Shown in pieces: positions 16,384-41,528 of a DNA stretch of 64,000 nt. A program made the position numbers and the translations under genes. Origin of the DNA: Amoebophrya sp. A120. Lineage: Eukaryota; Protista; Dinoflagellata. The stretch covers positions 3,911,838 through 3,975,837 of the forward strand of contig CAJINV010000002.1 in the NCBI GenBank assembly GCA_905178155.1. The letters run 5' to 3'. How positions within the stretch are numbered: the first letter of the stretch is position 1; each line of letters opens with the position of its first letter. The notes under the pieces were generated by a model, which was given only the letters and a program-made list of their open reading frames with translations, was not told the origin of the DNA and made no database searches.

Positions 16384-18092
16384 CAGCGCCGGGTGCGTCG
16401 GCAAGCTGCTGGTTTGTTTTTTGCCGAGCTGTTGATATTTTCTTTCGCCGGCCCGAGGAACAAGTGTGTTCGAAAAGAAAGTTTTGGAGCCGTCTTTTGG
16501 TTAGCGCGGCTAGCTGTATGAGGATAGCTTCATTCACATAGACCGCGGCCCCTGAAAAACGAGACGCAGAAGTGCCCACGTGCGGCGACAGTTGCAGCAC
16601 TGGCGCCGATCGTGGGCCTTTCGAATCCCAGCCGCGAGCGGAGCCCGCGCCGAAGCAATGCCACCCCCGACGCCCAACCCGGGCGGCTGCTTGCTCTCCC
16701 ATGTGTTTCGCTAAGGACACGGGAGCAAGACCCGGCCAACGCACGGGGCCCGGCCGCGGGCTGGTGTGCTCCTCCTGTGGCGCCTTTCGCCGATGAGGCC
16801 GAGGGACGCGCCGTACAGCGCCGGGCTTTGGAATTTGGACTTGGCCGAGGAAGCGGACGCGAAGGGCTTGAGCGCCCCGCCGGCCTTCGGTTCCATCGCT
16901 TCCGAAAATCGCTGGCGTGATATCTCGGACAGGCGCCCGGGGTGCTGTACGCATTGCAACAAACCGGCGCCGGCTAGTCCCTGCGGGGATTGCCGGAGGG
17001 GGGTGGCTTCTTGGTGCGTGGCGCACAAGATGGGCAAGGGCGGGAACTTGGTCCGGCTTTCGGCGGCGTCGCAGCCGGGCCGGCGCGGCTTTTGCCTTCG
17101 CCCGGCTTTGCAGCCTCGCCCCCCGCTGCAAAAGGGGAGCGGCGAGCGCCTTTCCGTGTGGCCCCTGCCTGGCTATTGGTGGCGACGGGCGCCGCCCTAT
17201 GCCCAAGGGACGGAGTTGGCCGCCGGCCCGGCCTAGGGCGGGCGCGCATTGGCTGCGCTCCTCCGACGACGTCCCAAAGTGGGCGAGCCCGCAACGACGG
17301 AAAGCAAAGCCGTACGCAGGTGCGCGGCCTGCTAGGCTTACCGCGAAGAGAGGGGGGCGGCGGGGGAAAGGCTGCGCCCTGCCCCTTGCCCCAGCGGCGC
17401 CGGGGGGTCTCTCCCAGCCAAACAGTGGCCCAGTGGAGTGCAGAAGTCGCCCCACCCCCCGCCCGGGGGGGCGCGTGGTCCTTTGCTTGCGGAGTGCGTC
17501 CGCCGGGCGTTGTTGCCCTGCCTCCCCTGGGCCGCCAAGCGGGCCCCCGCCGCCCCCGCCGATTTTGCAGCTATGGGTGGCCAGGGCGGCCCGGTGGATG
17601 CGTATCTTCTGTTGGGGCGCCTTGCTTGGAAAAAGGACGGACCTTGGAAGCAGAGGCAGCCCGGGCCATTCGCCGTCTCTTTTCTGACTCTCGCGCTGTC
17701 GGCGTACGTAGGTGCGTGCGTGTGTGAGCGCGCGGGCTTGCAGCATGATGTCCAGTGCGGCGCAGGAGCTGCCACGGTTACATTTCGTGTGTATTTATTT
17801 TCATTGAGGCGGCCCTCTCGCTCTCTTGGCTGTGGTTGTGGTGTGTTTTGTGTGTGATTGTTTTTGATGGGTGCCTGTATCTAAGAGTGGAGAGCCTGCT
17901 TGAGAGGCAAAGTGGCACATCAGCGCATCAAACGGGAGGCAGTAGAAAGAAAATGTGAGCGGGTCGGCGCAAATGCTAATGCGAGCGAATTGCAATTCCC
18001 CGTTTTGTTCATGACAGCGATCTTGTACTTGCATGTTGGATATGCAGCAGCTACATTTCTATCCATGGTCTATTGATGCCATAGACCAACTG
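16384..18092. mobile_element. Intergenic GC-rich decayed element (possible TA-flanked CAG...CTG element)
   Basis: Abrupt GC-rich island with broken frames and CxxC remnants (CTHC...CGDC); ends ta|CAG ... CTG|ta; hairpin tggtctat-N7-atagacca near the right end. Confidence 0.4.
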
Positions 18093-18151
18093 TAGAGCTT
18101 CGCAAGCTCAATTTTCCCACGACCCCGGGGATCTTCCCCACCAGCAAGATC

Positions 18152-21100
18152 ATGGACCCTCCCCTGCCCTGGCGCGGCCGGCTCCGCACGGCGAACACGC
18201 TCTACGAGCTGGAAGAAGCGTCAACGACCATCGGTCGCGACCCGCAGAACGACCTGGTCCTGGATTCCCGGGGGATTTCCCGCTTTCACGCCATCCTCAC
18301 CTTTACCAACACCAGCGGACCCTGTTTGACCGACAAGGGGTCGGCCAACGGGACGTTTGTGAACTCGCACCGGTTGGCGAAGGACACGCCGTTTCGGTTG
18401 AACCACGGCGACTTTATCTTTTTCTCCGCGTACGAACGGACGCACTACAGGTTCGAACTCCCGGATGGCGATCTGAACAGCAGCAACATCCTCGGCAACA
18501 TGCCGGAGTACGTCACCCCGCCCGCGAAGGAACCGCTGATCACAGGCGGGTTTGAAGACGCGCAGGAGATCCGGAAGCGACAGCAGTACCTGGGGGTCGA
18601 AAACTTGACCAACGTCGACCACCGCATGGTCACGCCACGGCAACCCTTCGTGGGGGAAAACTCGAACTCAAGGAACAAGATTTACTACGGGAAAAACGAC
18701 GAGCAGAGGAGAGGACCACAGAGTGGCACAGCTGCCAGAACTAGCGTTAATGCTGGTCGTCGGAACAGCAGCAGTAGCGGAATGCTGGGCGGTGGTGGGG
18801 GAAACAACTACATTGAGGAGGAGGAGGAAGACGAAGGTATCAAATGCAAAAATGTCTGGGTCTGGAAGGTTGCAACTTGTAATGCTAGCTCTCCAGCATA
18901 CCGAGGAAATCTGTACTGCATAGCAAACAAAAGACGCAGCCTTTTTTGTACATGCAAAAACTCATTTTGTCGTGCGGATTTCCTATCAGAAAGCGTTCTG
19001 AAAAGTTGACATGCTGTGTTGCATTCGGAACTGTTTCCATCATCCACATTTTAGCAACACAAGTTTCCAGACCCAGACATTTTTGCAATGCATAGAAGGA
19101 AACACTTATCAAGACGACCTCTCCGATATTCGTGCTGAGCAGGCGCAGAACCGGATGAGTCAGCGACGCGCAAGTGCAGGAGGAAATAATAGAGCTAGCG
19201 GCGTGCAGCAGACCAGGTTAGACGCAGTGGAGAAGCGGTCGACGTCCACGTCACGGGCGATGCTAGGGGGCCGACGAAATAATGATGATGAAAACAACAA
19301 CGACCTCGAGTTCGAAGACGGGGGTTTTAAGCCACGGAGCAGTAGCTCCACGAGTCTGCGAAATTACAACGCGATGATGAGAAATGACGATGGAGCTGCT
19401 GATCCTGCAGCCAACAGCGACGACTGGTCGAGTAATCTGGTGAAAAAGAAGTCTATCGCAACCCCCCCGGCAGTGAAGGAGAGGCTGGATTTCTTGGAAA
19501 AGAAACTTTTAGAGACGGAACGGGAGAAGGAGGTGAGTGATGTCATGAATCAAAGCGGGTCCGCCCGCGAAGGAGTTGTTGTACCAGGGGCGAGAGAACA
19601 TCAAAGCGGCGCTGTTTCCCTGTCTGGGTCGGGGTTAAACAGGAGCAACAGCGCCGGCGGCACGAACAACTTCCCCGAATCCGGATCGGCCGCAGGATCT
19701 GCCGCGGCTTCGGGCGGCGGCGGAGGTTTTAATATTCTCGGCGGGTCTGGATCTGGGTCCGGCGGAGTTCTCGTGCCGAATACTGCAAGCAACCCTGCAG
19801 ACCTCCTAGAATCCTCAACGCTGTTGCAGAGCCCGGATTTCGTGACGGACGTCCACACCCTGCAGCGCGCCTTGGAAATTCTTTCCCGGATTGGGCGGGC
19901 AGTGACAAAAGGCTACTCTTCCGCGGCGTCGCAACAAGTAACACCGAGGTTGTTCAACACGACTGTTGGAGCCGCGAACAATAATCTTCAAAACGACGTG
20001 ACCATGACAAACGCGGGAGATGAACAATCAGGCAAGTATGCCGCGGAAGATCATGCCGTTGCGAAAACGTTAAACCGGACGGATTTTTTCACGGCCTCAA
20101 TGCTGGATACAAACATGTTTCAGCAACAACAGCAGAATGGAGGTGGTACAGGTAATATTTTCAACACGACGCCGAGAAAAAAGCTCAACATCGACAAGGC
20201 GCGAAAGGAAGAGGAGCAGGATCTGCTGGCGGTTCTGGCGAACTTTTTCCGGGGCAAGAACGAGGATTCGAATAATCAAGCAGCAGTGCAGCCGATTGTC
20301 CCGACAATTTTGAACACGACAAAAAAACTAGAAAAGCTGTTCCGCGAGACGAAAACCGGCCAGGCGTTTCTGCAAGCCATGTTGCAGGACGAAAGTAGAA
20401 CTGCAACTGGCTCCAAAATGATAACGACCGGCGATAATTTTGATACAGCAGGAAATAATCTTCAAATGAACGCGGCTCAAAGCGAAGAGGAGTCGGATTT
20501 GTCGTTTGGGGACGAGGATGGAAACAATTCGGACAACGACGACCTGGAGAATTTATCCGATAATTCCGATTTCGACGAGGACCGACAAAAGAAACTGCAA
20601 AGGATCCGCCGGAGCCGCGGGTATTTGACCCAACTCGTGAAACAGCAGGACATTGAGTTGTCCGAACTCCGCAGTAGGGCGAATTTTTATCAGCAGCTGT
20701 TTCCGGATGGCGGACCCGCGACGGGAATGAAGGCCAAAAACTCACTCTTAAAAGCCGACAATCTGACCGCGTGGCGTGACCGGATCAACAACGGCGGTGT
20801 AGCAGCTACTACAGGAGCTAGTACTGCAACCGGCGGCCCGGCTCTGCAGAGCTTGAATAACGGGATGCTGCAGCAACTGGAAACCGACCAGTTGATCAAG
20901 CTGTCCTACCTCTTAGAAATATGCATTGCAAAAGTATGGTGCTCGTACTAGTTGCAGTGCAGCATAACAGATCTCGTGTCATAGCTAATTCAGCATGACA
21001 AATTCCATGCTTCCTACTTCTGGAGAAATTGCGAATTATGCTACTTGTTCTACTAGCACGATACTTTTGCAATGCATAAGCAAACCAGCTGACCAATTCC

Positions 21101-23678
21101 ATCGCGAAAGAGCAAACCAACGAGAACAGCCGGCACTGGAAGCAACTTTTGCTAGAATCCGAGTTTTTCAAGTCCCGCATTTTCCGCGCGCAGCAGAATC
21201 TGAAAAATCTCCGGGCGAAAAACCAGGTGAACGCGAAGGAGGTGTTGGCTCTTACGCATGAGAAAAAAGCATCTTCGCACTAAGGAGCACCAATTGCATA
21301 TACAAACTTTTTCAGGCTGTTGAAAGACATCACAATGTGCCATACTAGATCAGCATCACCAGGTAGCGCAAGACATTTGTCATGCTGTACTACTGCAGTT
21401 AGCACGATATTGCGATGATTTTCCATAGGATAACGCTTCGGAGTAAACAGTACTCGGAGGAAATGGAAGTCGAGGGGATCTACGCAAACGCGGAGGTGGT
21501 CGGCGAGAGCGACCGACAAAGGGCGCGGAACAACTTTAACTTGGAAGAGGAGCAGCAGGCCTTTTCGTTGAAACTGTCAGACGAAAACGAGAAGTTGGGG
21601 AAAATGAAGGAGTTCGTCTTGCAGGAAAAATTGCGGCTCCAGGAAGCAGAGGACTTGGTGTTCAACGGATCTTACGCAAGTGTAGAAAGTTTTTCAAGTG
21701 TAATATCGCTGTCGCTGTAATTTTAATTTGCCATGCAGATTCAGGTTCAGATACGCAGGGCCCGCATCTGTAGTCCTGCATGCGATGCCGCTATAGTACG
21801 ATCTCGATATTACGAGTCCAACTTTTGCACTGGATAGATCTACTGGAGTGTCATCAAGCGCCACAACTACGAGTACTACAGCGAACAATGCAGAAAATAA
21901 CCTCCTCCAGCAAACTTATGCATTGCAAAAGTATCGTAATCGTACAAATGCATTACAAATTTCCTCAGCGTAAGAAATAAAGTTTGTAATGCTGATTTGC
22001 CTCAAGAAAAAAATTTCTAATGCGTGATTGCAATACCAATACGAGCGCGATACTTTTGCACAGGATAGAACTTCTCTCCTAGCGATTTCGAACCTTCTCG
22101 AGGAGATCAAAAACGCGGGGACGTTGTATGATCTGCTCAAACGTTACAATCTCAAACGTTCCAATAGAATCTGGGATGTGTCTTGCATATATGAGCATGA
22201 CAGACTCGCAGACCATTCCACTTTCTGCAGCACAGATTTCGGCACATTTTTGTAGTGCGGTTTGGGGCTCCGGAACTTGTCATGCGCAGTCCTATGAGAA
22301 TTGGCTAGATCATGCACCTCTTGCATCACAGATTTCCAAATTCTATTGCAACGTTTGAGATTGTATCGTTTGAGCAGGTCATACGTTGGAACGGGTGGTC
22401 GAGCTGGAGAACTGCGCGCGGTTTCTGTACTGGAAACTGCTCCACTTGGAGAAAGCGACGCGGAACGCAAATCGGTTGACGGAATTTCAACTCCGGGAGC
22501 AACAGCAGCAACAGCAAAATGACATCCTGAAAACGAAAGACAAGGACCCGCTGTCCGCACGGGCGAGGCGAAAGCAGACAGGATGGAATTTGCAGGAGCG
22601 GCTTTTTGGAGGCGATCCCGTTGGGGGAAGTAGTACAACTGGGAAGAAGTTTTTGAAGCTGAAGCCCTCCGCAGTTCCTCCGGTACCGAAAACGGTGCAG
22701 GACGTAATTGGAGTGAACGTCCAGGAAATTGTCGCGAACCATCGGAGTGCAGCTCCTTCGTCAAGGCTGCGCGCACCAGGACCAGGTTCGGATCAAAGCG
22801 GCACGAGAAGCGCACCGACTGGTGGTGCAGCGAACAATGCAAGCAAAAGTAGTATCGCAAACAACAGTAACTCCAAACGCATGGAGGATTGCATTGCGGA
22901 GGCGCTGAGACAGCACAACGTCGAGCAAGCCCGGATGTTGAAGCAATTGTGGCGGGAGAAGGAGACGAAGGAAAAGCAGCTGAAGGCGGAAAAGGAGAGA
23001 CAGGTAAGTACGTATTGTGGTGCGTTTGCCAGCATGAGATAAGTGAGGTCTTGTACAAGTTTTGCATGAGAAAAAGCTGTAAACATCCCTTTAAATAAAA
23101 CCTGTCAGGAGCAAGAAGCCGCGACCGCGCGTGCGAAGAAGGAGGAGGAGGCCCGACTGGAGCAGGAGCGGATTAACGCGGGCAAATCGGAGTTGGACGC
23201 CGCCTTTTTGGAAAACGTGAACGGGAAGTCCATGTTTGGCGTGAAATTCCACTCGCAAAACGTGAACCCAAACACCATGGTGTCGTCCTCTGCGAGTGGG
23301 AATGTTGTGATGGAGGAACAGCAAGAACAGCAGCAAGTTTCATTCCCCTCAGGAGGTGGTGGACCCGTACTACCCGACTTCAGTAACAACGTCAAAAATC
23401 TCACCGTTGGCAGCGCGGCGAGCTTCCTGCCGGGCGACCAGAAACTCCAGCTTACCCCTCGAGGGGCGGGCTCCTCGTCGGTACAAAACACGATCCGGGG
23501 GCCCCAGGACTTGAACAGTTACAGTCGGAATCTGCATGCGAGGATGAACAACTACAACGACCCAGTTTTCGCGGACGGGACGAGTGCGAATTATGAACAA
23601 CCGGAGGATTTGGAAGATAAGATACGGCACCCGCAGAAATACGTGCCGCAAATTCTGGTGGAGCTGCCAGATGATTGA
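18152..23678 (+). CDS. FHA-domain protein with coiled-coil and low-complexity regions
   Basis: FHA motifs TIGRDPQNDLVL..ISRFHA..DKGSANGTFVN. Introners 18838-19094, 20920-21078, 21253-21432, 21673-21836, 21917-22067, 22127-22383; GT-AG intron 23004-23108; stop 23676-23678. Confidence 0.85.
22127..22383. mobile_element. Introner, family G (TIR TATGATCTGCTCAAACGTTACAATCTCAAACGTT)
   Basis: TSD cgttg/cgttg, frame restored (GTL|ERVVELE). Confidence 0.85.
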
Positions 23679-23944
23679 AGGAAGTAGAAAGAGATTGTCT
23701 GCAGTACTTTCTTTATCAGAAGATAAGATGCAAGGAGGTACATAAGCTGCAAGATTCGTTTGTCCACAACTCGCGAACGCGACTCGAATGAGAATTTACC
23801 TACGATCATAAAGACAAAAAGCTTTTTTGTTGAACATGAAATTGGAAGTGTAACTGCGCCAAGACTATATGCGCTGAAGACCTGCAGCGAGCTGCGCTAA
23901 TTTTTTGATGCAGCGACCACACACTCGTCTGGCTCTCAATTTTA

Positions 23945-25286
23945 CAGAGGCCCCTCTAGTTGTTCTGCGTCGAAGATCCGAGTCAGAGTGCGCACGTTTT
24001 CTGATCCAATGAAGGGCCTTGGAGCTTTTCCCGAATTAACCAACCAAGAAGCGCAGCAGTGCCGGAGAAACGGGGCGCGCCGATGAGCGCGGGGGCGCGC
24101 CTTGGTGGTGCGCGGCTGCGTGCGCACGCCCGGCAAATGGCGAACGCTTGCAAGCGTTGGCCCAAGATGCCGGGCGCTTTGCCTCGGGTGCCGCCGTGAA
24201 GCCCTGCAGGGAATCGGTGGGGGCGCCGCCGCGAAGGCGGCAACTGAAGGCAAGGCGGCAAGGCCTTCCCAGGGTATTTGAATGCGCGGCGGCGACAGCG
24301 ACAGAGCGACGATTCGCGGCAGCATCACATAGAGAAGCAACGCGAGCGGGAGCGTCAGAGACTGACTCCCTTCCGATTTTCCCCAGGGGCCTAGGTCTTG
24401 CCGATGGATGCCCGCGCGGGGCCGCGCCAAACAGGCGGCGGGGATTCATTGGGGCAGCGGCAGCAGCAGGCGCGGAGAGGAGGCGGCCGCGCCGGGGCCC
24501 CTGCCCTGTCTGCAGCCGACCGCGGCCCCCGGGCGGGCGGCCGTTGCTATGCGCGCAGGCACGAGAATTTCCCGAGCAAGTGGCCCCCCCGCGCTGAGGG
24601 AAATTTCGAAAGGCATAGAAATCGAGGGCATCATGGACCACGGCGCCTATCTCCTCGCGAAAGAGATCCTGCTGTGGGCCCACAGCCCGCCCCGTCTTTT
24701 GGGCGTGTGGAAGGTGACCCAGCGCGCGTTCGCGCGGAATTCGAGAGCACGTCAGACGCCCAGACCAAAAAGGCGGCGTGGTCGCTGCCCACCGCCTTGA
24801 CTTTTTCACGCAGGCCCAGCGGCCGCGCCTACAGACGCGGGCGGGCGGGCGGGCGGGCGCCCGCCCGAAGGCGCGCGGCTGGCGGCCCGGGGCGGTGGCG
24901 ACACAGGTGCCGCCCGTGGCCCCCGTGTGTCTCCCTATGCCGTCCTTGGGGTGGCGCCACCCATCCGTCCGCGGGGGCGGGCCTGGTTGGCGCCAGAAGC
25001 TTTGCGCGCCGGCCTCGCTCTCTCACCCTCGCTCTGCCACGGGGCTGGTTTGTGGAGTCGTAATCCTTTATCTATGCTCGCGGCCGCTCTTGCGTCCCGC
25101 ATCCGCGAGCGAAGACACGGATGGCGCCCGCGAGCCCGGTTTCGCGTGCGGCCGCGGAAATGCGTGTGGGCGTCGCGCTTTATAATTTTTGCGTCTTGCA
25201 TTGGAAAACTCAATGACTGACTAGCACCGCTTTGCCCGGACTATCGGGTGTGGGGTTCGTGATGGCGTATAATTTTGGCGGGGCTG
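23945..25286. mobile_element. Second intergenic GC-rich decayed element
   Basis: GC-rich island, CPVC remnant, ends ta|CAG ... CTG|ta, short patches resembling the 16384 island. Confidence 0.35.
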
Positions 25287-25803
25287 TAGTTGTTCTCCTT
25301 TTCTGAGCAGGAGGTTGTAGGATCAGCTCTTTTTGATGTGATCGCAGTTGTACTTACTACAAGGAGCTGTAGGATCATGTCTTTTGATGCTACTAGGTCA
25401 GTGACTCTTGTTGTTTCTTTCTTACGAGCAAGCCGACCAGTTCCTCATATTACATTTTACCAAGGATCATCATTATGCTCAGGACGGCCAGGATTGCTGA
25501 GACACTGCCCGGCACAGGAGAAAATTTGTAGTCGAGCTTTCCAACAAATCCCTCAGCAACGTTGACATAATTTGGATGTAGTGCCATGTTGTTCGAAGGC
25601 CCGCCGAACTAGGACACGCGAAAATGTAGTTAAAGGAACAAGTTCAAGTTGCAATTACAAAGCAAACTAGAATAGCGAACTAGTGCGTGGACCACAGTAC
25701 AGTCTTCTTTTAATCCTCCGACGTTAGAACATCAGACCAGATACAGTAGAAACAAGGAACATCGCCTCAGAGAATCAATTGTTGAAGCCAAAAACAAAGA
25801 AAA

Positions 25804-26181
25804 ATGTCATCCCTGGCCACCTCCTTCGGGATCCAATTGTACTGCGGGTACAAGTGGTTCGTTAACTACCTCTGGGACGGCAACTCCAGCTCTCCGGTGG
25901 ATCAATCGGCCCCTGCTATCAAAGCGCGGAAGAAACAGGAGTATAAACTGGATCAAGACTTGTACGACAGTGAGGAGGATACGGATTTCGATTCGGACGA
26001 CGTCTACGACAATCTCGGGGAAAGAGCGGATCGTGGCCGCGACGGTTTTTTCTTCGACCAAAGCGGATCCTCGTCCTCTTCGGGGAGCGAAGTGGAGGTT
26101 GAGAATCATGCTGGTGCAATTACCTCCTCTGACGGGCACGGGCTGTATCCCTCGGGGCGCGCGCGGGATGAAATTGTGTGA
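25804..26181 (+). CDS. Small acidic hypothetical protein (single exon)
   Basis: 125-aa ORF, ATG in A-rich context, coding-like composition; no recognisable domain. Confidence 0.45.
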   Translation: MSSLATSFGIQLYCGYKWFVNYLWDGNSSSPVDQSAPAIKARKKQEYKLDQDLYDSEEDTDFDSDDVYDNLGERADRGRDGFFFDQSGSSSSSGSEVEVENHAGAITSSDGHGLYPSGRARDEIV

Positions 26182-27379
26182 ACGTCGGGTGTAGTAATGC
26201 ACGAGTGGTTTTCCATCTCCCGCGCCAGGACCAGGAGGTTGCAGTGGATCATAGCGAATCAAGTCCTGGCCCGTCTTTGACCTGGTTCTTTTTTTTGTTG
26301 ATGAGAATATAGCCGAGTGATTTGATGTTATAACAGTGTAATCGGAATAAAATCCGAATCGGATCTGGCCACGAGCAGGAATTCAGTCCCATTGAGCTTC
26401 ATATTTTGAATCAGAACGTTCTAGTCATGATGATAGATAAATCCAGCAAGAGATCATGCCCAGTATTTCTGAGCAGGTAGGCCCAAACTAGATAAAGCTC
26501 GATTTGGACGAACCGTCAAATAATTTAACTTTAAGACAGGACGACCAAGCTGGCGACCGTCTTTGATCTTTCTGGATTCCGAGAAATCTTCAGAAGTTAT
26601 CCGGTGTTCAGCGCTTGTTTCTTAAGTACCCTTTTTTCAGTTCATATTTTGCAAGTACTAGGCACGGCTGCTGGAATTACAGTTACACAGACCAGATCTC
26701 GAGGATCTTCCCGTTTTGCATGCAATTCAGAACTACCTCGCGCCAGCACAAGGTCATCCCTTTTTTCGCAGATGAGGATCTTCTACGCCAGCGAGTTATA
26801 ACGAAAGTAGATCATCACGTTTGGTCCGACGATTCTGGTACTGAATTAGAGTCGAATCGGCAAGAAAAAGCACCGCAAGTTCCTCTTCCCTCCTGCCGTA
26901 GGACGAAGGTTCAGCAAAGGAAAAGGAGATCAGTCGAGATCGCTTATTTCAACATGTACTAGAGTTTACACATGCTTTCTTCAGAGCGCCTGTAGTCGGG
27001 ATCATTTTATTTCCACCGGCAGCTCCTTGCCGCCATTTTTTGCATATTGCTCTAGTAGTACCTAGCTTTTTCATTTTCTTGAACTCACTGGCGTGCGGCA
27101 CTAAACCCATTGTGGGGCGTCAGAAGTTTTCTTGTTATTTGAATTTTCGTCGACGACTTTTTCGATTTCGTTTTCAGCAGCGACAGGCACTAGCAAAACG
27201 CTAACGCGGAGAGTAGGTTGTAGCACCCATTTTTTTACACATGGAAGCAAGAGTCGTCAGGTAGGTAGTGACCACACTCCTCCGTGCCGTGCTGGTAAGT
27301 AAGTACCCTTTCATCTCACCATTGTTCCCCCTAATTATCGTTCCCTAGCGACAGACTTCACGACCCCTCTACAAAAAAA

Positions 27380-30300
27380 ATGGGCATCCTTGAGAAAATT
27401 GCCGAGATTGAGGCCGAAATGGCCCGCACCCAGAAAAACAAGGCGACAGAATACCATTTGGGGCTTCTCCGGGGGATATCAAATGCAAAAGTGTCTGGGT
27501 CTGGAAGAATGCGCGATTTGTCATGCAGCTTTTCCATGACCCATGAGGTCTGGAATGCAGGACCTAGCATGACAGATTCTGCGCGACCTCTCTCATGCCT
27601 ATCCTGCATGAGAAACTCCCTGGCGACTTGGTCAAAACTGGACGACTTTGGGTAATCATGCAACACAGATTTTTGCATGCTCCAGATTTAGCACGACAAG
27701 TTGCAGTCTTCCAGACCCAGACATTTTGACATTTGATAGGGGAAGCTCGCAAAGCTGAAGACCCAGCTCCTCGAACCCTCTAAATCCGGCGGCACGCACG
27801 CGGGCTTCGAAGTGGGGAGGTACGGAGACGCGCGGGTGGCGATCATGGGTTTTCCCTCGGTCGGAAAATCCTCCCTGCTCGCGGAGCTTACCGGGGTAAA
27901 GTCCGAGGTTGCCGCGTATCAACTGTAAAAATGTCTGGGTCTGGAAGAATTCACGTTTGTCATGCTTGTCTGGCATGACTCTTAAATCTGTCATGCATGT
28001 TACCCAAGAGCTCCGTTTTTCTGTGATGCAGAAGCGCAGTTTGTCATGCAGAATAGGCAACACCTAGGAGCTCAGAAACTTGCCATGCTGAGCCAGCATT
28101 TGTAGCGTCATCATGAGACGCCACCCAGCATCACAAGTTTCCAGACCCAGACATTTTTACAGTTGATACCGCGTACGAATTTACCACGTTGACCTGCATC
28201 CCCGGGGTGATTTACCACAACGACGCAAAGATCCAGCTGCTCGATCTTCCCGGAATCATCGACGGGGCGGCGCAGGGGCGGGGCCGCGGCAGGCAGGTGA
28301 TTTCCACGGCGAAGTCCGCGGATTTGATTCTAGTAGTGCTCTATCAAATGCAAAAAAGTCTGGGTCTGGGAAGTTGCGAGATTTGTCATGCTACTCCGGC
28401 ACGACTTTGAACTCTATGTTGCGTCACCGCAAGGAGCTCCTCTTGCCTGTCATGCAAAAACGCAGTTTCATCTCATGCGGAGTACGCAACTCAGAACCAA
28501 GGAAAAACTTGTCATGCTTGGCAGCGCATTACAGTGTCGTGTGCTCACTATTCCCTTCCTTGCATCACAAGCTTCCATACCCAGACATTTTTGCAGTTGA
28601 TATGCTCGATGCGACCAAGGACGACAGTCAGAAAAAGCGGTTAGAGGCGGAGATGGAATCCGTTGGCATTCGGTTGAACAAAACGCCGCCGAACATAAAG
28701 GTGACGAAGAAGCTATCTTTTGCAAGAACGTCCCCGTCCCCAGCCCGGAGTCAAGATGGCGACTGTGCTACAGAAAGCAGCAAGTTTTGGCTGTTGCGCA
28801 TGACAAGTTTGGGTCTCTGGTGTAGTCGTGGCTGGCTAGTGAAGCCACAACAGAAATGCAGCGCCTCATCCTGATTCGAGCATGACAAAGTCCCAGGCAG
28901 CATAAGAAAATCAAAATGCTCCTCATGGGGTTGCGCATGAGAAACATTTTAGGGATGCCATTTTGCATGACAACTCCGGGCTGGGGGCGTTTTTGCACAG
29001 GATAGAAGCCGGCCGGGGGGGTCCGGATCAACGCCAGTTGCAAGCTATCCTGTGCAAAAGTATCGTACTCGTATCGCAATCATGCATTACAAATTTTTTT
29101 CTAAAGGTAAATCCACATTACAAATTTTATTTCTCATGCTGAGGAAATTTGTAATGCATTTATACGAGTACGATACTTTTGCAATCCATACAAGCGGAGT
29201 CAGCTTATGCATGGCAAATATTGGTCTGGGTCTGGACGACCTGCAGGGAAGCAGACATTTGGCATGCAGTTTTTGCATCTGCAAGAAAGATTGGAATGTG
29301 CACAGAGCATGACAAACTCTGGGACACCAGCTCTTCTAAGCCGGGTCTGCATGAGAAATCGACCCACTCCGGGACAGGCAGAAATCGGATAAGTATCTTT
29401 TGCTGACTCTCCAACACAGATTTTCGCCCGTTCCAGAATCCGCATTACAAGTTTGCGCCCTTCCAGAGGACCCAGACATAATATTGCATTGCATAAAGCT
29501 CGACGATAAGTTGATCGAGGGACTGTTGCGGGAATACAGAATATTCAATGCGGATGTGATCATAAGGGAGGACGCTAGTGCAGAGGATTTTATCGACGTT
29601 TTGGAGGGAAATCGGAAATACGTATTTTACATTTTTGTTGAAGCTCACCTGATTTTTACCCCACGATTTTTTTGTCATGCGCGGCTAGATCGATGAGGAT
29701 TCGACTTTCACTTTCTCATGCCCATATGCTGCGTACTGATACATAGTACAACACTTCTACGAAACAAAAACTTCTATCAAAGGTCCGGTGTGTCTATTGT
29801 TACAACAAAATCGACATGCTCTCCGTCGAGCAGATAGAGGCCTTGGCCCGGCTCCCGCACTCGCACGTAATGAGCTGTAATTTGAAGCTCAACCTCGACC
29901 GACTGAAGGATAGAATATGGGAGGAATTGAGTATGGTCCGGGTGTACACGAAAAAGAAGGGGCAATTTCCGGAATTCAGCAACCCGCTTGTGATAACACC
30001 ACAAAGAGGAACGAAAGAATGCAATGTGGAAAACGCGGTATGATACATAGTTTTTGACAAGATGAGGAGTTCTTTATCTCCTGTACTATTTTCATGAACT
30101 CGTTTTTCTATATAGAACTGTCGGACAGTGAAGATGCAAGTATTTATCAGGACTACATCACTGCGTCAGCATGACGAAGAAGTTGCAGAGCCTCTAAAAA
30201 CAGCACACCTCTTATGCATGATCAAAAGCACGCTCACGCATGAAAATGACATTGAAATTGATAATCAACGGACCAAACATCAACTAACGGTACGTACATT

Positions 30301-31129
30301 ATCTATCACAGGTGACTCTCCTGCACAAAGACCTCCTTAACGATTTCAAGTGCGCGTTAGTATGGGGAACGTCAGTGAAGTCCAGTCCGGCCACCGCAGT
30401 ATCACATGCAAATATGTCATCTGGGAGCTGGAAACTTGTGAAGTAAGTAGATGCGGAGTTGATGTAAATGACTGGAACATGTTTAGTTGTGTAGTGGCAG
30501 CCAACAAGCATCAGAAGTTTTTTGCGCGCTCTCTTAAGCCTACGCTGTATCTATGATGTGTCAACTGACACGTCGAGAAGGGGCACTTGTGTCGGTCCTG
30601 TTCCAGGAGTGCTAGATGAAAAGCTGGCATGACCACGAGCTTCCACTTATTTTCCAGATCGCCAGACCTATTTGCAACTTGCATATCCCGGGCTGAAGCA
30701 CTATTTGCAGGACGAGGACGTGATCCAAATCCAGAAGCTCACCGCGGCGGAAAAGCAGAAGAAAATGCACGGGAAAAAAACCGGGACCACAGAGGCCGGC
30801 ACGGGGAATTTGATAGACCCGAAAAAATATCAAGTGCAAAAGTGTCTGGGTCTGGAAGAGTGCATGTTTGTCATGCTCGTCTGGCATGACTCTTAAATCT
30901 GTCATGCACGTGACCCAAGAGCTCCATTTTTCTGTGATGATGCAGAAACGCGGTCTCTCATGCAGAATAGGCAACACCTAGAAGCTCAGCAACTTGTCAT
31001 GCTGAGCCAGCATTTGTGGCCTCATCATGAGACGCCACCCAGCATCACAAGTTTCCAGACCCAGACATTTTTACACTTGATAAAAAACAGCTAGAGAAGA
31101 AGCAGAATAAAACAGGGCCGAGAAGTTGA
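27380..31129 (+). CDS. DRG2: Developmentally regulated GTP-binding protein (DRG2/Rbg2-like, OBG family, C-terminal TGS)
   Basis: Rebuilt sequence [86 protein letters not shown]. Introners 27477-27738 (gggga), 27917-28168 (ccgcg), 28342-28602 (tgctc), 28714-29004 (gaagc), 29046-29190 (caagc), 29206-29495, 30400-30685, 30828-31082 (aaaaa); GT-AG introns 29622-29782 and 30038-30311; stop TGA 31127-31129. Confidence 0.93.
27477..27738. mobile_element. Introner, dominant family A (TIR TATCAAATGCAAAAATGTCTGGGTCTGGAA), about 250-290 bp
   Basis: TSD gggga/gggga. About 40 relatives in the window; near-identical copies at 15539 and 36430; variant start TATGCATTGCAAATATGTCTGGG. Confidence 0.92.
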
Positions 31130-32799
31130 TGAGCCGTACTGCTGGTGTGAGAAGTTGTTGTAAGTAAGTACTACTGGGAGGTCGGCGTGGTCGAGGTCGT
31201 CGGCCTGAGGTGACGAAATTGGAAAACGATGAAATTGTGAACCATTTTCATTTTTTCCTGTGTGATCTTCATGGACATTAACCGAGACGACGCAGAGCCG
31301 AGCTTCATCCTTCTGCTGTGAACTATGTGTAAAAAGTCGTACTATCATTGTGTACATCGTCAACTCACGACGCACCATGGTCCAGCATCGCATGATTAGG
31401 GGCGCGCAACCTCGTCATGAAGCTTCTGGGTAAAAACAGTAGAGATGTTGATACAACTTGAGTAGTTTGAATCTGTTCTACTTGTGCAGTTCCCTGACGG
31501 TCGTGTAAGGAGGTGTCCTCGTGCCAGGAGGTGGTAGCACGTACTACTGGTACAACAGGTTTTAGTGACAGGCACGACTTTGATGATGCCATTTCTAGTT
31601 GAAAACTTATCTGTCGATATTAGGCGGTCCGTCGATCAGTACGGGCCCCCGTCCGATAGATTCAATTGTCCAATTCTATATCTAATGAAGAATTAGAATG
31701 TCCATGTCGGTCGTTGTTGCTGTACCAATCGGACTTGCATCTTCTCGGTTTGTTAACTGAAAATGATTCATGCTGTTGCTGATTTATCAGGTCAATTTCG
31801 GTGCCTGAATAATTAAAGAAGATGAATACTCGTGGTGCGGCAGCGGCGTGGTCTGGTTCTAGATTTCTGAATCATGATGTCGGTTGCGGTTTTCCTCAAC
31901 AAGAATCCAATCGGTTCTTGATGTTCGACTCCAATCGGTAATAGCGGGCCGATAGAAGTTGTACTCCGACTTATAGTCAACATATTGGCGTCATGTTTTG
32001 TCGGATCCCACGACGCTAGCATTGCTCTAGTACTCTGATCGGTGGAAGATGAAACTGCTTATAATTATGTGAGTCCCAAAAGTGCCAGCATGTTGATTTT
32101 TGGCATCTTCATCGACTTCGAGTATCACAATCATTAATCGCAATAATTATGGGGCACCAGCAGGCGTCTTCAGATGTTCCCGAAAACTTTTCTCGCGAAA
32201 TCAAGGTATAATTATTCCCCACAACTGTACTAAAAAAAAATACTACTAATTATCCTGCAATAAGATAGATCTTCTTCTCACAGTACATACAACCAACAGA
32301 CATAAAAAAATTGAAAATAATATGGGTCCTCAGGGTCGTGGTTACACTTACAATCGCGCAAGCCGGGTGGTCGTTTGCGTGGTCTTCTACGCGACATTGG
32401 GACCGCGCCCTCACTGGGCAACAAGTCTTTTGTCGTCTCGTGAACACCACAAGCACGGGGCGTGCGAGGGTACAACTTGCAACGCCGCGTGTACACATAC
32501 TAGAATATGTCAGAAGCAGGTCGCGCTCACGCAGTTGGTTTTGGACCCGATCTTTGGAGGAACTACCGTATGATTCACAAAAAAAGAGGACCCATCTTCC
32601 CTATCTTCCAAGTTGTTGTGCAAAACATGCATATACGAAAGTCCTGTGTCGCTGTTGTGTGTGATGCAAAAAATGATGGATGGGGAGTCTGTTTTTTTTT
32701 TTCTGTGGATACTTATTACGCCGCGGATGTGTTCGCACGCGAAGATGAGCTACAGGGTCAAGAAAAAAACGGAACAAATGCTGTTGGTGCTTCGAACAA

Positions 32800-35700
32800 G
32801 AGGATGAACAGCACGACTTCTCCCAGTATTGCAGCGACGCTAGACGCAATGAGCTGGAGCGGCGTGTTGATGCCGGAGAAGCTTTCGCTCGCCTCCGGTC
32901 ACTATCAACTGCAAATATGTCTTGGTCGGGAAAGAATGAGATTTGTGTTGCTTTCTGTCGATCACACAAAAATGTGTATTCTTGCAAGAGAGGCAAAAGT
33001 AGACACTCAGATTCTTGCCACCCGGAGAGGGCACTTCTCATGCTGGATAGGTATGAGAAAAGCTTTGCGAAAGCTGTGATGCTACAGCATGCATCACAGG
33101 CATCGGGAGCCATGTACAATTTGCATGACAAACTCCCCAAACTTTGTTCCAAGCCCAGACACTTTTTGCCATGCATAGTCACCTTGCGCCAGGCGGTCAT
33201 TGCTTGTTCACAAGGGCGGCCGGCGGAACGAAGATCCTGGCAGGCGGGCGCACCGTATCGTAAGGAAAAATCCCCCCTCTCCATATCGAAAAGGCACGCC
33301 TCAGAGAATTTGTCATGCTGATTTGTGACGACCTCGACCACAAATCGCGTCTGTCTTGCAAGAAAGCAACGGCATTGGCTTCGCTCCATTATGCAGGCGG
33401 TTGGTAGAAATGTTGTTGGGCCTACAGCATAGACGTTCCGCATGCTAAGCGCCTAGGCCAAAGCCTCATCCCTACATTGACATGATATGGGCCTGCGGTC
33501 CTCTACTGCAAGACAAATCCGATCTGTGCACGCAAATCCAGCATGAGAAGTTTTGTTTTGATGTGCTGGGGAGGAGGGATTTTTCATTTTGATACACCGA
33601 ACGCGTTGTCGGGACTTGGGAAACTGGGTTTTCTGTGCCGAGACTTTGCAATGGTGATCAGAGTATGCATTGCAAATTATATGTCTGGGTCTGGAAACTT
33701 GTGATGCTAATTTATGAATTGTGGGGACACTACAATAAGCAGCCACGCATGACAAGTTTCTGGGCTCCTATGTGTTTCGCTTTCCGCATGACAAACTACA
33801 TTTTTCTTGCAAGACAGGCAAGAGGGTCTTTTCCTGCTCACGCATTACAGGTTCAAGAGTCAACATGTGAGACAAACATGACAAACCTGCATTCTTCCAG
33901 ACCCAGACATATTTGCATCTGCTTACTCGCGCTACGCGAGGGAGTTTGATGTGATTGAACGTGCGGTATTCCAATGAAAAATGCCCACACCCCTGAACTT
34001 GGGAGCATTTGTATTGCAAACCTTTCCAAGTGAAACACTCGCCTTCTTGCATATCTTAGCATCACATGCTGAATAGGTCAAATTTGTGTTGCAAAGAAGC
34101 TCAACAGTAGCCGGGTCTGTTATGCAAAAGATGCCTTGCGCACCTAGATTCTGCATCAGAAAGGCTCATAGTCCTGTCATGCAAGACAAAGATCTTGCTC
34201 TTGCATTTGGAAACTTTGCATGAGAAACTTTTGCGAATCCGAATTCCGGGGTGGGGGCATTTTTCATTGGAATACGCGGTCCTCATGAAGAAGCAGACTA
34301 TTCCACCTGCGGCTCCTCACGAACTGCGCGTTGCCGGAACAACAAGCACGGAAACGAATGAAAGGAACGAACCCAATATTGAAAGGAAAAATCTCCCCTC
34401 CCCATATCGAAAAGGTTTGTTTCCGAAAATTTGTGTTGCTGATTTGAGACCACAAATCATGTCTGTCTTGCAAGAAGACCAGTGCAGCCGGTTCCGCGCC
34501 ATTATGGAAGTGATTTGGCATGCTGTTGGGCCTAGGGGACAGCCGTTTGCAATGCTGAACAACAAGACCCAAACGCCCCCGCCTAGGCTGCGGATCTGGC
34601 TGCGAAGCCTTACTGCAAGACTGCGCGCATTTGTGTGCAGAAATCCAGCATCAGAAACTTCGTCTCGATATGGGGAGGGGGGATTTTTCCGTACGATACC
34701 CAACAAAAAACGTCTACCCGGTGTGGCCTACTTGCTGCTGACGGGCGACGGGGAAGCCTTTGACCAAGCGGCCCTGTGGCGGCAGTACTTCCGAACGTGT
34801 GACCCCACCCGTGCCACGGCCAATCTGTACGTGCACACCTACAAAAAAACGTTTGACCCCGAAACCCTGACGGTGAGCGGCGCTGTGGATGAGAAGGCAA
34901 AAGCCTGGAAAAACCTGTTCGACACCGAACCGGGGCTCGGGTCGGTCCACTTTGTTCCCCGCATCCACACCGCGTGGGGCGAGCTGGTGCCGGTCATGTG
35001 GTGGCTGGTTGTGAATGCATTGCAAGAGGACCACGGCGGCGGTAAAAACGAACAGTTTGTCTTTCTCAGCGAGGGACACGTACCACTGAAAAACTGCACA
35101 TTCGTGCACGAGGTATCGCAAGAAAAAACTGTTTCACTGTGAACTTGTGATGCAGAGATGAACGAAGCACCAAGGTGTTTGTCTTGCTACACCTGCATAG
35201 AGCATTGGAGTTCCAGCCGTGTTTTCCCCTATGGGAAATGCGCGCATGGCAAGTTTTCCGCGCCATGTGTAGCAAACTTGTGATGCAGATATTGCACAAT
35301 CATCACAGTGAAACAGTTTTTCGTGGGATACGAGGAATTGCTGGAACAACGAGAAAAAAAAGCGGCATTCGGCCTGAAAAAACAAAAGCAAGAGCAGGAA
35401 CTGCAAGCGCAATCAGGATCAGCTTTGCAGTATCCTGAGTAAAAATGTCCCCACACCAGAGTCAAGATTGGAAATCCGCTAGACAAATCAGCCACCTCTG
35501 GTTGTTTCGCATGACAAGCTCCTTATCCTCGTAGTGTAATCCTGTTTAGCTAGTTGCGAAGCGTCACAGATGTAGAATATCATGCTGAGTCTAGCATCAC
35601 AAATTCCAAAACAGGATTAGAAAATGGCTCTCATGGTTCTCCGCATGAGAAACTTTTTTGGCATGCACATTTGCAGGACAACTCTGGGGTGGGGACATTT

Positions 35701-38700
35701 TTACTCAGGATATGCAGCAAGCGTCGAAAAGCGGGTTCCTGGAAGCGGACCAGCACGGCCCGGGCCGCGGGGGGGAGACGTTGGCCAAAAATTCATCTTC
35801 CGCGTCCGCAACCGGAACCGGAACTGGACCCGTATGCATTGCAAAAGTATCGTACTCGTAGTAATTGCAGTCCTGCATGGCAAATCTGATTGTGATTCCA
35901 TAGCTCATTCACCATTACAAATACCATTTTTCCTTCTGGAAAAATTTGTAATGCTATTTAAACTATAACTAGTACGATACTTCTTGTGCAATGCATAACC
36001 CGCCCGTAATGACGATGTTGATCTGAAGGAAGTTGACGAGGAACCGCAGGTATCAAATGCAAAAACGTCTGGGTCTGGAAGATTCTGAGACTTGTCATGC
36101 ATGTTTTGCATGACCCAGGATTGTGTGTGATGCATGCCCTACCATCACAGACTTTTGGAGCCCTTCCTGATGCCTACTGCGCATGACAAACGCGCTCCCC
36201 GCGTAGCACGAACTAGACTCCTCTTGCTGGTCATGCAATACAGAATTTTTTAGAGTCCAGAGTTAGCATCACAAGTTCCAACCTTCCAGACCCAGACACT
36301 TTTGCATTTGATAACAGGTCGAAGAAGTTTCAAGGACCAGCAGCAAAGTGTGCATGGTGCCCGAGCAAGCGGTTGAGACGATGGATCCCGGCACGGAGAG
36401 TGGCTGCATATTTGTGCAGTCGCTCGAGTTATCAAATGTAAAAATGTCTGGGTCTGGAAGAATGCGCGATTTGTCATGCAGCTTTTCCATGACCCATGAG
36501 GTCTGGAATGCAGGACCTAGGATGACAGATTCTTTGCGATCTCTCTCATGCCTATCCTGCATGACAAACTCCCTCCCGACTTGGTCAAAACTGGACGACT
36601 TTTGAGAATCATGCAACACAGCTTTTTGCATGCTTGAGATTTAGCATGACAAGTTGCAATCTTCCAGACCCAGACATTTTTACATTTGATACGAGTCCCA
36701 AGTGCCGCGCCATCACCAGTGGGGCACGTTGTCGCGCCCGGACGCGGAACTTTTCAAGAAGTACATCTTGCTGGGCTTAAACCTGTACTTCGCAAACTTG
36801 GTGCATCAAAAGGTATTACAAATCATGCATACTTGCATTGCCTTGGCATAGGAAGTATTTTGTTTGCTGTGCTAGTATATTGCAAGCAATTCGTGTTCAG
36901 CGCCAGGTCGTTGAAAGCAATGCGCCTCCAAGAGAAGGGGTCGCCCAGCAGCTGCCACACTCTAGCCTTTCGGAATTGCGTTCCCAAGGTTTGCCGGAAA
37001 TCCTGGGAGCACATTTCGGCAAGGCCCCCACGTCGGCTTTGTGCTCTGGCCGGCAGTAGGTCTGAAGTCCTCGCGAAAAATCATCCGACGTCGGGGAGAT
37101 AAAGAAATGCGCCCCTGGGATTTTCGCCGCGTCGAGACCTGGGATCATAGTTCTGCAAAGCCCCCTCGTAAGATGATGTTGCGCGGGTTTTTCTGTGTTT
37201 CAAGGTCAGAACACAAACTCGAGTAGCACTCTCGTGCTCTGGCTTGCAGAACTGTGCTCCTAAGATTTGCTGACATCGAACTCAAGTCCGATTTGTGGTT
37301 TGATCGGCAATGCCTACGCAGGTGAGTTACAGATATTGGCTCGCAGGATTTCCGCCGCATCGCGAAATTCTTGACGCAGCGAAGATCCTCGGAAATAATT
37401 TCTGTAAGTTACTTACCTGCGTAAGATTTGTCTTCTCACTGGTAATACCGATCTGGGCACAAATCTTATGCAGGAAACTTACAGAGATTAGTTCCCGGGA
37501 TTTGCGTGCTGCGTCTCCAATCGCCTCACTTGGACACGAGGATCATCAGTGTGTCCAAGTGTGGCGAGATCCGAGATCAGGGTGTCCAAGTGTGTCCAAG
37601 TGTGTCCAAGCTCACATCCGAGAACTTCGCGGATGTGAGCTGTCAGAGAACTTTCACACGCAAAGTGCCAAAGTTTGCCCCCCTGCTCGTGAAAGTTCGA
37701 TCCACGTGTCCGAACGAGGCGATTGTAGAAAAAAAGCGGAAATCCTGGGAACCAATTTCTGTAAGTCGCGTGCGTAGGATTTGCACTCAGGTCGCGATTA
37801 CCGGTCGAAACGCAGATCCTACGCAACCTACTTACTTACAGAAATTAGTTCCCAGGATCCCACATCCGAGAATTCCTCGGATGTCAGCTCCCATCCGGGA
37901 AGTTCGCGGAAGTGAGCTGCCAGAGACCTTTCACACGCAAAGGGCCGAACTTTGGCGCCCTGCTCGTGAAAGTTCGATCCGCGTGTCCAAATGAGGTGAC
38001 TGCAGAAAAAACACGGAAATCCTGGGAACTAATTGCTGTAAGTCGCGTGCGTAGGGCGTGTAGTCAGACCGGGACTACCGGTCGAAACGTAGAGCCTGCG
38101 CACCTGCTTCAAAATTTTTGAAAACCGAAGCTTTTAGGAACTGCTCTGGGAACTAATTTCTGAAAGCTCTAACTTAAACCTGTACTTCGCAAACTTGGTG
38201 CATCAAAAGGTGGGCACCACCACGTACGACGCGGCCAACATTGGCGCGAGCGATGAATTCATTTTCGGTTCCACCCTGCTGATCGCGAACATGATTCAGC
38301 AGAGAAAAACCTTCGAGTCCTTCTACAACGTGTCCGAGACGTATGGATGTTGTGTGAGGATTGAAATCGACAAAGTTGAAATTATAACTTGTAATTCATA
38401 AAGTGAATGAAAGTTGTAACCCAGATTTTTCCAAGTGGCGCATGACAAATTTGGTTAGATCCGAAATCCAGTTTGTCATGCTGTTTGGGTCGTAAGGAAG
38501 ACGCCTTTTGTCATGCTACTTTCGCGGCTCAGTTTCTACCCCTCAACAGGCTTACAATCTGCCTCACTTGCCTACTCTGCAAGACAGGCGCTTTGTGGGC
38601 TGCATTTCATGCATGACAAACTATTTCAACTTTAACGATTTCAATCCTGACACTTCCATAATACGAACGCGAAAGCCGGAGTCGTGCAGGTCTCTTCGCG

Positions 38701-40877: not shown

Positions 40878-41528
40878 CGGGAGGAACTGCTACGCGGGGC
40901 CTGAGAGATTCTTTTTTTCGGAACAAAAAATATCAAAATGATTTTCGGAGCCACATTATTTATACTTAGTCATGATGCCAGCTCGTAGATTAAGATGAAA
41001 ATTATGATTACTTATCCTCACGACCCAGATTCCGTGTAATATGAACAGACAAACAAACAGAATTACTTATATCGCTGGTGATTGTGGTACTACTACTACT
41101 TCTACAACAAGTATTTTTGACAACAAAAACGACCTGGGATGCACCATAAGCACTTGGTGGCCCTCCAAATTTAAATTTTAGGAGATCTGAACCCCACCTG
41201 GCTTTGGAATTGTGATACTCGAGTCGCAAGCGACAATCTCTGGGTCCTCTTCAACGTGCCTAATGGACAACAATTTTGCAGACCACATGTTCATCTCGAG
41301 GACGTGATCAGGAGATGAACAAGGTCTATGTTTATGCTCTATAAATCTGAGCAGCCGCAAAAAAAAAAATGTTGACATAGCAGCTCAATAATAAAGTTGA
41401 CGATCAGTCTACTTCTGTGGGATTTTTCTCAACATCTTTGTTCTCAAGCAATCATATTTATAATTTCCAAGAGCGTCTGGCACGCCCTGGTCGTCGTGTT
41501 CGTAAATGCAATTGCTCTGCGGGGCTTA

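What the first reader, a model, noticed from the sequence alone, without database searches (positions are those of the whole stretch)
27380..31129. Non-GT-AG TIR introner introns: a conserved gene is readable only under an 'element plus one 5-bp TSD' excision rule
Seen: DRG carries 8 TIR elements from 3 families, and removing each with one TSD copy gives an intact DRG. Junctions such as ccgcg|TATC..GATA|ccgcg and tgctc|TATC..GATA|tgctc offer no GT-AG or GC-AG pair in any register, while two ordinary GT-AG introns exist in the same gene. The rule holds for nearly all of about 85 elements in the window. Established: IR/DR-flanked non-canonical introner elements have been reported in Amoebophrya genomes and their removal mechanism is, to my knowledge, unresolved. 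Inference: a second excision system that reads the TAT..ATA hairpin ends operates beside the spliceosome.
Basis: partly seen in the sequence, partly recalled or inferred. Interest (0 to 1): 0.9.

Follow-up and report, generated by a model that had tools for sequence, protein, structure and literature searches.

The report
Transposon introns, likely loosened spliceosome
Eight small transposons interrupt a GTPase gene of the marine parasite Amoebophrya and are missing from its transcript-derived contigs although they lack normal splice signals, a phenomenon already published; a bias in where they landed suggests they are likely removed by a loosened ordinary spliceosome rather than by a second machine.

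Summary
Eight TAT…ATA elements interrupt DRG. Removing each plus 5 nt, and two GT-AG introns, gives a 410-aa protein identical to public P0001. Contigs of a probable RNA run fit that splicing on six lengths or break points; DNA contigs keep the elements.

Not found in my five paper searches: (1) the duplicated 5-mer need not match (2/5 at one DRG element) and upstream bases 1-4 are kept; (2) elements lie in both orientations; (3) sense-strand AG sits at duplication positions 3-4 in 16 of 80 elements, against about 5-6 expected and 1 mirror case. This points to an intron N-TAT…ATA-NNNN, whose start lines up with this genome's GTAT donors.

Against: 37 of 80 have neither GT nor AG; the register was not read directly; no chemistry was tested. 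Unchecked scan notes report similar introns in Prorocentrum.

The parts
27380..31129 (+). DRG-family GTPase gene, 410 aa in 11 coding exons
   Evidence: Reconstruction identical to P0001; Pfam MMR_HSR1, MMR_HSR1_Xtn and TGS on P0001
27477..27738 (.). Element 1, main family, perfect 5-bp duplication; predicted intron 27476-27742
   Evidence: skipped in X3 record 9, judged by length
27917..28168 (.). Element 2, main family, opposite orientation to element 1, perfect duplication; predicted intron 27916-28172 with GT start and non-AG end
28342..28602 (.). Element 3, main family, perfect duplication; predicted intron 28341-28606
28714..29004 (.). Element 4, second family, perfect duplication with AG at positions 3-4; predicted intron 28713-29008
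29046..29190 (.). Element 5, short third family, perfect duplication with AG at positions 3-4; predicted intron 29045-29194; followed by a 10-nt micro-exon
29206..29495 (.). Element 6, diverged main-family ends, duplication 4/5; upstream base 1 kept in the transcript
   Evidence: P0001 residue 196; contig break points
29622..29782 (+). GT-AG intron 1, starts GTAT
   Evidence: skipped by X3 record 11, and bin depth leaves no coverage for it
30038..30311 (+). GT-AG intron 2, starts GTAT
   Evidence: skipped by X3 record 11, judged by length
30400..30685 (.). Element 7, old, duplication only 2/5, terminal pairing not predicted; upstream bases 1-4 kept; predicted intron 30399-30689
   Evidence: break points fit only a cut after base 4 or 5
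30828..31082 (.). Element 8, main family, duplication within an A run; predicted intron 30827-31086
   Evidence: X3 record 13 length
812..63987 (.). Span of all 81 curated TAT-ended elements in the window; host reading frames are on the + strand

Best explanation
The elements are non-autonomous terminal-inverted-repeat transposons that duplicated 5 bp on landing in exons and are missing, together with 5 extra bases, from transcript-derived contigs; they are likely removed by the cell's ordinary spliceosome with loosened end rules, predicted to cut one base before the TAT and four bases after the ATA. Steps: (1) insertion in either orientation with a 5-bp duplication (shown in sequence). (2) Removal at RNA level of element plus 5 nt, keeping upstream bases 1-4 whether or not the two copies match (shown for DRG by contig geometry, on an assumed word length of 31). 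(3) Cut after base 4 rather than base 5 (inferred from the AG bias). (4) The TAT serves as positions +2 to +4 of a GTAT-like donor with a free first base; the long hairpin, the shared internal motif or both bring the ends together and set the 3' cut by distance, and AG helps but is not required (inferred). (5) Insertions that landed with AG at positions 3-4 splice better and were kept more often (inferred).
For: AG at duplication positions 3-4 in 16 of 80 elements vs 5.1 expected from phase-matched flanks (p 4e-5, Bonferroni over 64 tests 0.003) or 5.8 from long reading frames (p 2e-4). Other positions give 8, 4 and 4. The mirror CT occurs in 1 of 80, rejecting a symmetric target preference (p 4e-4). 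The bias holds in 14 of 72 non-DRG elements, 13 of 53 perfect duplications and 7 of 9 genes. All 5 GT-AG-capable elements use this register. Orientation splits are 19:14, 5:5, 6:3 and 6:3 with host frames on +. Contig geometry fits only a cut after base 4 or 5. The internal motif occurs at 9.5/kb in elements and 6 times in 7 putative GT-AG introns (shuffle mean 0.17, 0 of 2000 reach 6), and 0 times in 7.2 kb of exon and 5.9 kb of intergenic DNA. All nine top A120 site classes in Farhat Table S4 have T second. Farhat finds 83 of 89 spliceosomal proteins plus U2, U4, U5 and U6 in A120, with U1 snRNA undetected. Precedent: Fritillaria.
Against: 37 of 80 have neither GT nor AG and only 5 have both. 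G at +1 is not significantly enriched (32 vs 25.2, p 0.12). The AG pattern was first seen by eye in these same elements; there is no independent set. TAT conservation is partly my search criterion and is also expected of transposon ends. The GT-AG-in-one-register result partly follows from the fixed T. Table S4 may reflect aligner bias. The TAT is predicted paired in 79% of 78 elements and would need unwinding. A fixed branch-point spacing suggested by the two DRG GT-AG introns did not hold in five other putative ones. Retained forms of elements 5-6 and 7 occur at depth 4-5 vs 46-73, with none for GT-AG intron 1; later removal is also described for euglenid nonconventional introns. Two decayed candidates (33664, 55723) do not fit +5. 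No direct junction read-out at a position-5 mismatch was obtained.
Confidence: 0.6

Rival explanations
1. A separate, non-spliceosomal RNA system reads the hairpin ends and cuts at fixed distances, as proposed for euglenid nonconventional introns.
For: Strong predicted foldback (z -2.5 to -10.9 for the 8 DRG elements). Orientation independence. Nearly half the junctions have neither GT nor AG. More retention than a GT-AG intron. U1 snRNA undetected. The Euglena rule also has a motif 5-6 nt from the 3' cut.
Against: Sense-strand AG bias at the spliceosomal positions. Motif shared with GT-AG introns. No G-U excess in stems. Element 7 is removed although its terminal pairing is not predicted. Hybrid borders are common here (GT start in 32, AG end in 16 of 80), whereas the Euglena paper calls hybrids rare.
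Confidence: 0.22
2. Spliceosomal removal, but with the cut directly before TAT and five bases after ATA, the whole upstream copy being kept.
For: Contig geometry and P0001 fit this register as well as the preferred one.
Against: AG would sit at -3/-2 of both exon and intron, and the donor would be TA; I know no rationale for either (recalled). The bias is specific to positions 3-4.
Confidence: 0.1
3. The elements are cut out of DNA, IES-like, before the gene is transcribed.
For: TA-type ends and restoration of the target superficially resemble ciliate IES (recalled). The life stage of the DNA run is not known.
Against: X1 contigs carry elements in place at depth 24-31, e.g. 29449-30856 with no differences. 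The probable RNA run has element-retaining contigs while intergenic depth is zero, as expected for pre-mRNA. The AG bias follows the transcribed strand. The tool's count of joined forms in other runs was not given.
Confidence: 0.04
4. Cryptic GT/GC-AG sites are used, or this locus is silent and another DRG copy is expressed.
For: In-frame cryptic pairs exist near every element. Two score close to the base model (-1.4 bits at element 5, -0.4 at element 8).
Against: The +5 model scores best at all 8 junctions against a profile of 26 homologs that excludes P0001. X3 pieces include this locus's flanks with no differences, and exon depth in DNA is about single-copy (35 vs 28-29).
Confidence: 0.02

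Closest known systems
Introner elements / non-canonical introns of Amoebophrya sp. A120 (Farhat et al. 2021, PMC7789003; abstract, sections 10, 11, 12, 16, 25 and supplement text parts 1-3 of 5 read; figures not seen)
   Same: TAT start followed by an A run, direct repeats of 3-5 nt (5 bp in its Fig. S19 legend), about 240 nt, RNA-seq supported, coexisting with GT-AG introns. The gene's product equals the A120-labelled protein P0001.
   Different: Not a different system. The paper leaves the border position unknown. In the text I read it reports no AG bias at duplication positions 3-4, no kept-copy asymmetry, no orientation test and no motif shared with GT-AG introns. Its Figs 3 and S19-S25, which I could not see, may show some of this.
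Fritillaria borealis non-canonical introner introns (bioRxiv 10.1101/2025.08.15.670264, abstract and sections 3 and 10 read; PMC11282704 passages)
   Same: TIR/TSD transposon introns without GT-AG, stated to need the U2 spliceosome.
   Different: There the ends are a few preferred dinucleotides (AG-AC, AG-AT) and U1 is conserved. Here the first base and the last four come from the host target and vary, and U1 snRNA was not detected.
Euglenid nonconventional introns (PMC12501133 and PMC11282704, passages)
   Same: Paired end motifs at fixed offsets from the cuts, proposed MITE origin, slidable borders, later removal.
   Different: CDG/CHG code with a 3-nt 5' offset, purine preferred at exon start, hybrid borders rare, circles reported. 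Here TAT/ATA with a predicted 1-nt 5' offset, an AG bias and frequent half-canonical borders.
Micromonas-type introners (PMC11282704 passages; PMC12130899 passages and 21 of 58 A120 rows of one dataset)
   Same: MITE-like elements whose target duplication supplies a splice site and restores the exon.
   Different: Those have a canonical GT/GC donor and an AG from the duplication. Here AG is only favoured (20%) and GT is present in 40%.

Membership tests
Amoebophrya A120 introner elements | Inverted repeats starting TAT with an A run further in | tested here: met
   T, A, T in 81, 81, 79 of 81 left ends (partly by search criterion); A at positions 11-13 in 73-77
Amoebophrya A120 introner elements | 3-5 nt direct repeat at the borders | tested here: met
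   identity 0.91 at length 5 vs 0.26-0.31 at lengths 2-4 and 6-9
Amoebophrya A120 introner elements | Repeated in families | tested here: met
   groups of 33, 10, 9, 9 and smaller; very high X1 depth over elements
Amoebophrya A120 introner elements | Absent from transcripts without GT-AG | tested here: met
   indirect, from contig lengths and break points of a run whose RNA nature is a tool guess, supported by zero intergenic depth and skipped GT-AG introns
U2 spliceosomal introns | GT/GC...AG termini | tested here: not met
   0 of 8 in DRG; 5 of 80 window-wide
U2 spliceosomal introns | Donor-like +2..+4 and AG favoured at exon and intron end | tested here: met
   in the register one base before TAT; statistical, one window
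U2 spliceosomal introns | Branch point and lariat; dependence on U2, U5, U6 | not testable with these tools
   no consistent branch spacing seen; no raw RNA reads over the gene
Euglenid nonconventional introns | N3-CDG...CHG-N5-6 signature | tested here: not met
   ends are TAT/ATA vs the signature
Euglenid nonconventional introns | Excision as circles, without the spliceosome | not testable with these tools
   needs RNA chemistry
Ciliate-type IES | Element-free DNA allele in the expressed genome | tested here: inconclusive
   elements in place in X1 pieces; X1 joints table swamped by repeats; one DNA run laid
MITE / TIR DNA transposon | TIRs, fixed-length duplication, no coding capacity, either orientation | tested here: met
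   element 1 read through in frame hits a stop
MITE / TIR DNA transposon | Cognate autonomous transposase with the same ends | tested here: inconclusive
   Copia-type integrase fragment at 41595-41948 near one TAT-type end at 42188; partner end weak (8 of 300 shuffles reach its score)

The most novel reading that the evidence does not exclude
Amoebophrya A120 runs a second, non-spliceosomal mRNA splicing machine that measures from the TAT...ATA ends of transposon hairpins, ignores whether the target copies match, and so neutralises almost any exonic insertion in either orientation; the elements would be spread by a Copia-derived integrase acting as a transposase.
Probability: 0.2. Interest if true: 0.85.

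Novelty: already known. Interest (0 to 1): 0.5.

Why it matters
The introns are published and this gene is already annotated with them, so the finding itself is not new. How they are removed is still open in the papers I read. The window turns that question into cheap tests: one base at five named junctions decides the register, and lariat versus circle decides the machine. If the preferred reading holds, a spliceosome apparently lacking U1 snRNA accepts any first base and almost any last four bases when a transposon end supplies TAT. That would explain how tens of thousands of insertions became harmless introns, and would show which parts of the GT-AG rule are dispensable.

Tried and rejected
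No whole genome is held, so all statistics rest on one window. No listed holder was on record as RNA. The raw RNA runs X10 and X11 laid only 13 and 1 reads and do not cover the gene; X12, X2 and X4-X9 were never laid. Including the DNA run swamped the joints table, so no junction row for DRG was seen. No read or contig read-out at a position-5 mismatch was obtained. Two protein searches for the gene at 42514-51015 found nothing, so its informative junctions could not be read from annotation. The metagenome scan gave 80 DRG loci whose best segments were 54-68% identical, with no close relative to supply empty sites (the loci were not screened for elements). The end pattern gave 0 hits in viral contigs and 1 lone hit without a partner end in prokaryotic genomes, treated as chance. 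G-U excess in stems: none. A 3' ATG end in 4 elements vs 0 mirror cases: not significant (p 0.125). Fixed branch-point spacing: dropped. AG bias no stronger in older elements (8 of 41 vs 8 of 39). Phase-0 excess (39:20:22, p 0.018) rests on crude frame calls and overlaps with the AG cases, so it is not used. Rows dropped: 12 of 83 first candidates (weak or mis-paired ends, before the AG idea); 33664 (decayed end); 8159 from the AG test only. P0028 is a repeat-driven false hit. Scan look-ups by place and by sequence were empty.

Full report
OBSERVATION. The region holds eight elements bounded by TAT and ATA with about 30-nt inverted repeats. Removing each plus five bases, and two GT-AG introns, gives a 410-aa DRG GTPase. 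None of the eight has GT/GC/GA-AG or AT-AC in any of the six registers. Window-wide, 45 TAT..ATA pairs have an exact flanking 5-mer and at least 13/20 end complementarity, against 0-1 in ten shuffles. Curation went from 83 candidates to 81: 12 dropped, 2 re-paired, 9 added by end similarity, 1 of those dropped again. The duplication length is 5 (identity 0.91 vs 0.26-0.31 for other lengths); 53 are perfect, 24 have one mismatch and 4 have more. A crude frame test prefers +5 uniquely in 61 of 81, with one tie and 19 misses, including one known false miss.

IDENTITY AND PRIOR WORK. A search with one unbroken exon returned P0001, 410 aa, labelled Amoebophrya sp. A120. It equals my reconstruction when at least two upstream duplication bases are kept. 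Farhat et al. 2021 (PMC7789003; sections 10-12, 16, 25 and supplement text parts 1-3 read, figures not seen) describe these elements: A120 inverted repeats start with TAT, direct repeats are 3-5 nt, 65% of RNA-supported introns are non-canonical, border positions are called unknown, and U1 snRNA was not detected while 83 of 89 spliceosomal proteins were. Their gene models are built from transcript and protein alignments, so P0001 is partial support, not proof. The phenomenon is therefore known.

RNA OR DNA. Four runs were laid on 27200-41000. The two raw RNA runs did not cover the gene. X3, guessed by the tool to be RNA, behaves like RNA: zero depth in two intergenic bins where the DNA run has 29-56, and GT-AG introns skipped. 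No junction row was shown, so I used contig geometry. Assuming 31-letter words and taking the two outer ends from the data, the spliced model predicts lengths 786, 468 and 640 and break points 29526, 30370 and 30719. All six match only when four or five upstream bases are kept. Removing +2 or +8 at each element would give 804 or 768 instead of 786. Retained forms of elements 5-6 and 7 are present at depth 4-5 against 46-73 for spliced contigs, while bin depth leaves nothing for GT-AG intron 1 (49.64 predicted, 49.6 seen). Contigs drop rare forms, so this is suggestive only. DNA contigs hold the elements in place at single-copy depth. Against a 26-homolog profile the +5 model scores best at all eight junctions, narrowly at elements 5 and 8.

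WHAT THE RULE REALLY IS. Element 7 has only 2 of 5 matching bases and no predicted terminal pairing, yet it is removed cleanly. A decayed candidate at 32569-32711 with no matching bases still needs +5 by frame (not checked in RNA). So the cut is likely placed by distance from the ends, not by homology of the two copies. Two other decayed candidates do not fit +5 (33664; 55723). Host frames are on the + strand and elements lie both ways (19:14, 5:5, 6:3, 6:3), so the signals are strand-symmetric.

REGISTER AND MACHINE. I noted the register one base before TAT as a hypothesis, then saw AG at duplication positions 3-4 by eye and tested it. It occurs in 16 of 80 vs 5.1 expected (p 4e-5, Bonferroni 0.003), with 8, 4 and 4 at the other positions and the mirror CT in 1. 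A second background gives 5.8 expected, p 2e-4. The mirror test gives p 4e-4. It holds in 14 of 72 elements outside DRG and in 7 of 9 genes. A symmetric integrase preference cannot give this. In this register AG ends both the upstream exon and the intron, which are spliceosomal preferences (established knowledge, recalled). The element start then reads N-TAT, like GTAT in 4 of 7 putative GT-AG donors (five of the seven are my frame-based calls). All five GT-AG-capable elements use it. An 8-nt internal motif family, chosen by eye from the elements, is in 75 of 80 elements and occurs 6 times in 7 GT-AG introns, but not in 13 kb of exon and intergenic DNA. Either both intron kinds share a signal or some GT-AG introns are old elements. 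Farhat's top A120 classes all have T second, which fits but may be aligner bias. Reduced U6 methylation favouring U at +4 is described in the tunicate preprint, a possible link not tested here.

AGAINST THIS READING. 37 of 80 junctions have neither GT nor AG. G at +1 is not significantly enriched. There is no branch consensus. The TAT is predicted to be paired in most elements. The AG result comes from one window and one set of elements. The choice between a cut after base 4 and after base 5 was never read directly. Greater retention also fits a separate, slower pathway as in euglenids. Stems show no G-U excess (42 vs 45), which weakens but does not exclude hairpin reading.

MOBILITY. A minus-strand fragment at 41595-41948 is 59% identical to the integrase region of an Amoebophrya AT5.2 protein that carries integrase then RVT_2, the Copia order. 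A TAT-type end lies at 42188 with only a weak partner near 40912-40940 (8 of 300 shuffles). A 5-bp duplication is typical of Copia integrases (recalled). Gozashti et al. 2025 (PMC12130899, passages; supplementary files 13 and 14 not searched) describe an A120 TIR family with Copia homology. The link remains a lead.

PRINT CHECK. Five searches listed no paper resolving the removal mechanism or reporting the AG bias; subscription papers are largely outside the library. A related strain with canonical introns has U1 (PMC12005148, passages). Scan notes on other genomes report similar introns in Prorocentrum and another marine protist; I did not check them.

VERDICT. Real and already known as a class. 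The second-system inference is possible (0.22) but less likely than one relaxed spliceosome (0.6 in the preferred register, 0.1 in the other). Interest 0.5, for making the open question testable at named bases.

Noticed in passing
window 41595-41948 (-), within about 40912-42188: Copia-type integrase fragment, 59% identical to P0029, lying between genes near one TAT-type element end with a weak partner end; possible relic of an autonomous element.
   Followed up: partly
window 36776-36814 and 38173-38211: Perfect 39-nt direct repeat of coding sequence flanking a 1.36-kb insert rich in nested palindromes; a GT-AG pair inside the repeat would remove the insert plus one copy. A different kind of insertion-made intron.
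   Followed up: partly
window 48804-49115: An element sits directly at the donor of a 55-nt GT-AG intron; the fifth duplication base is the donor G, so the two may be removed as one GT-AG intron or in order.
   Followed up: partly
window 12939-14057: Main-family element enlarged to 1119 nt, apparently by a nested insert with its own repeated ends, inside an adenylate-kinase-like frame (label from motif, recalled); the frame stays open after removal.
   Followed up: no
window 62236-63987: Second-family element enlarged to 1752 nt with GC-rich tandem repeats inside; perfect 5-bp duplication.
   Followed up: no
window 8159-9284: 1126-nt element with TAC/GTA ends and long perfect inverted repeats, inserted between two similar stretches of about 38 nt; duplication unclear.
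   Followed up: no
window 33664-33925, 55723-56021, 4890-5204, 21280-21432: Decayed element-like introns with one worn or missing end; the first two do not fit the +5 frame.
   Followed up: partly
window 29196-29205: 10-nt micro-exon between two elements in DRG.
   Followed up: yes
window 16350-17880 and 23950-25200: GC-rich stretches without TAT-ended elements, with overlapping long frames on both strands; possibly other repeats.
   Followed up: no
window 36691, run X10: Six reads match an element end but continue into different flanking sequence, so that run holds related elements at other sites.
   Followed up: no
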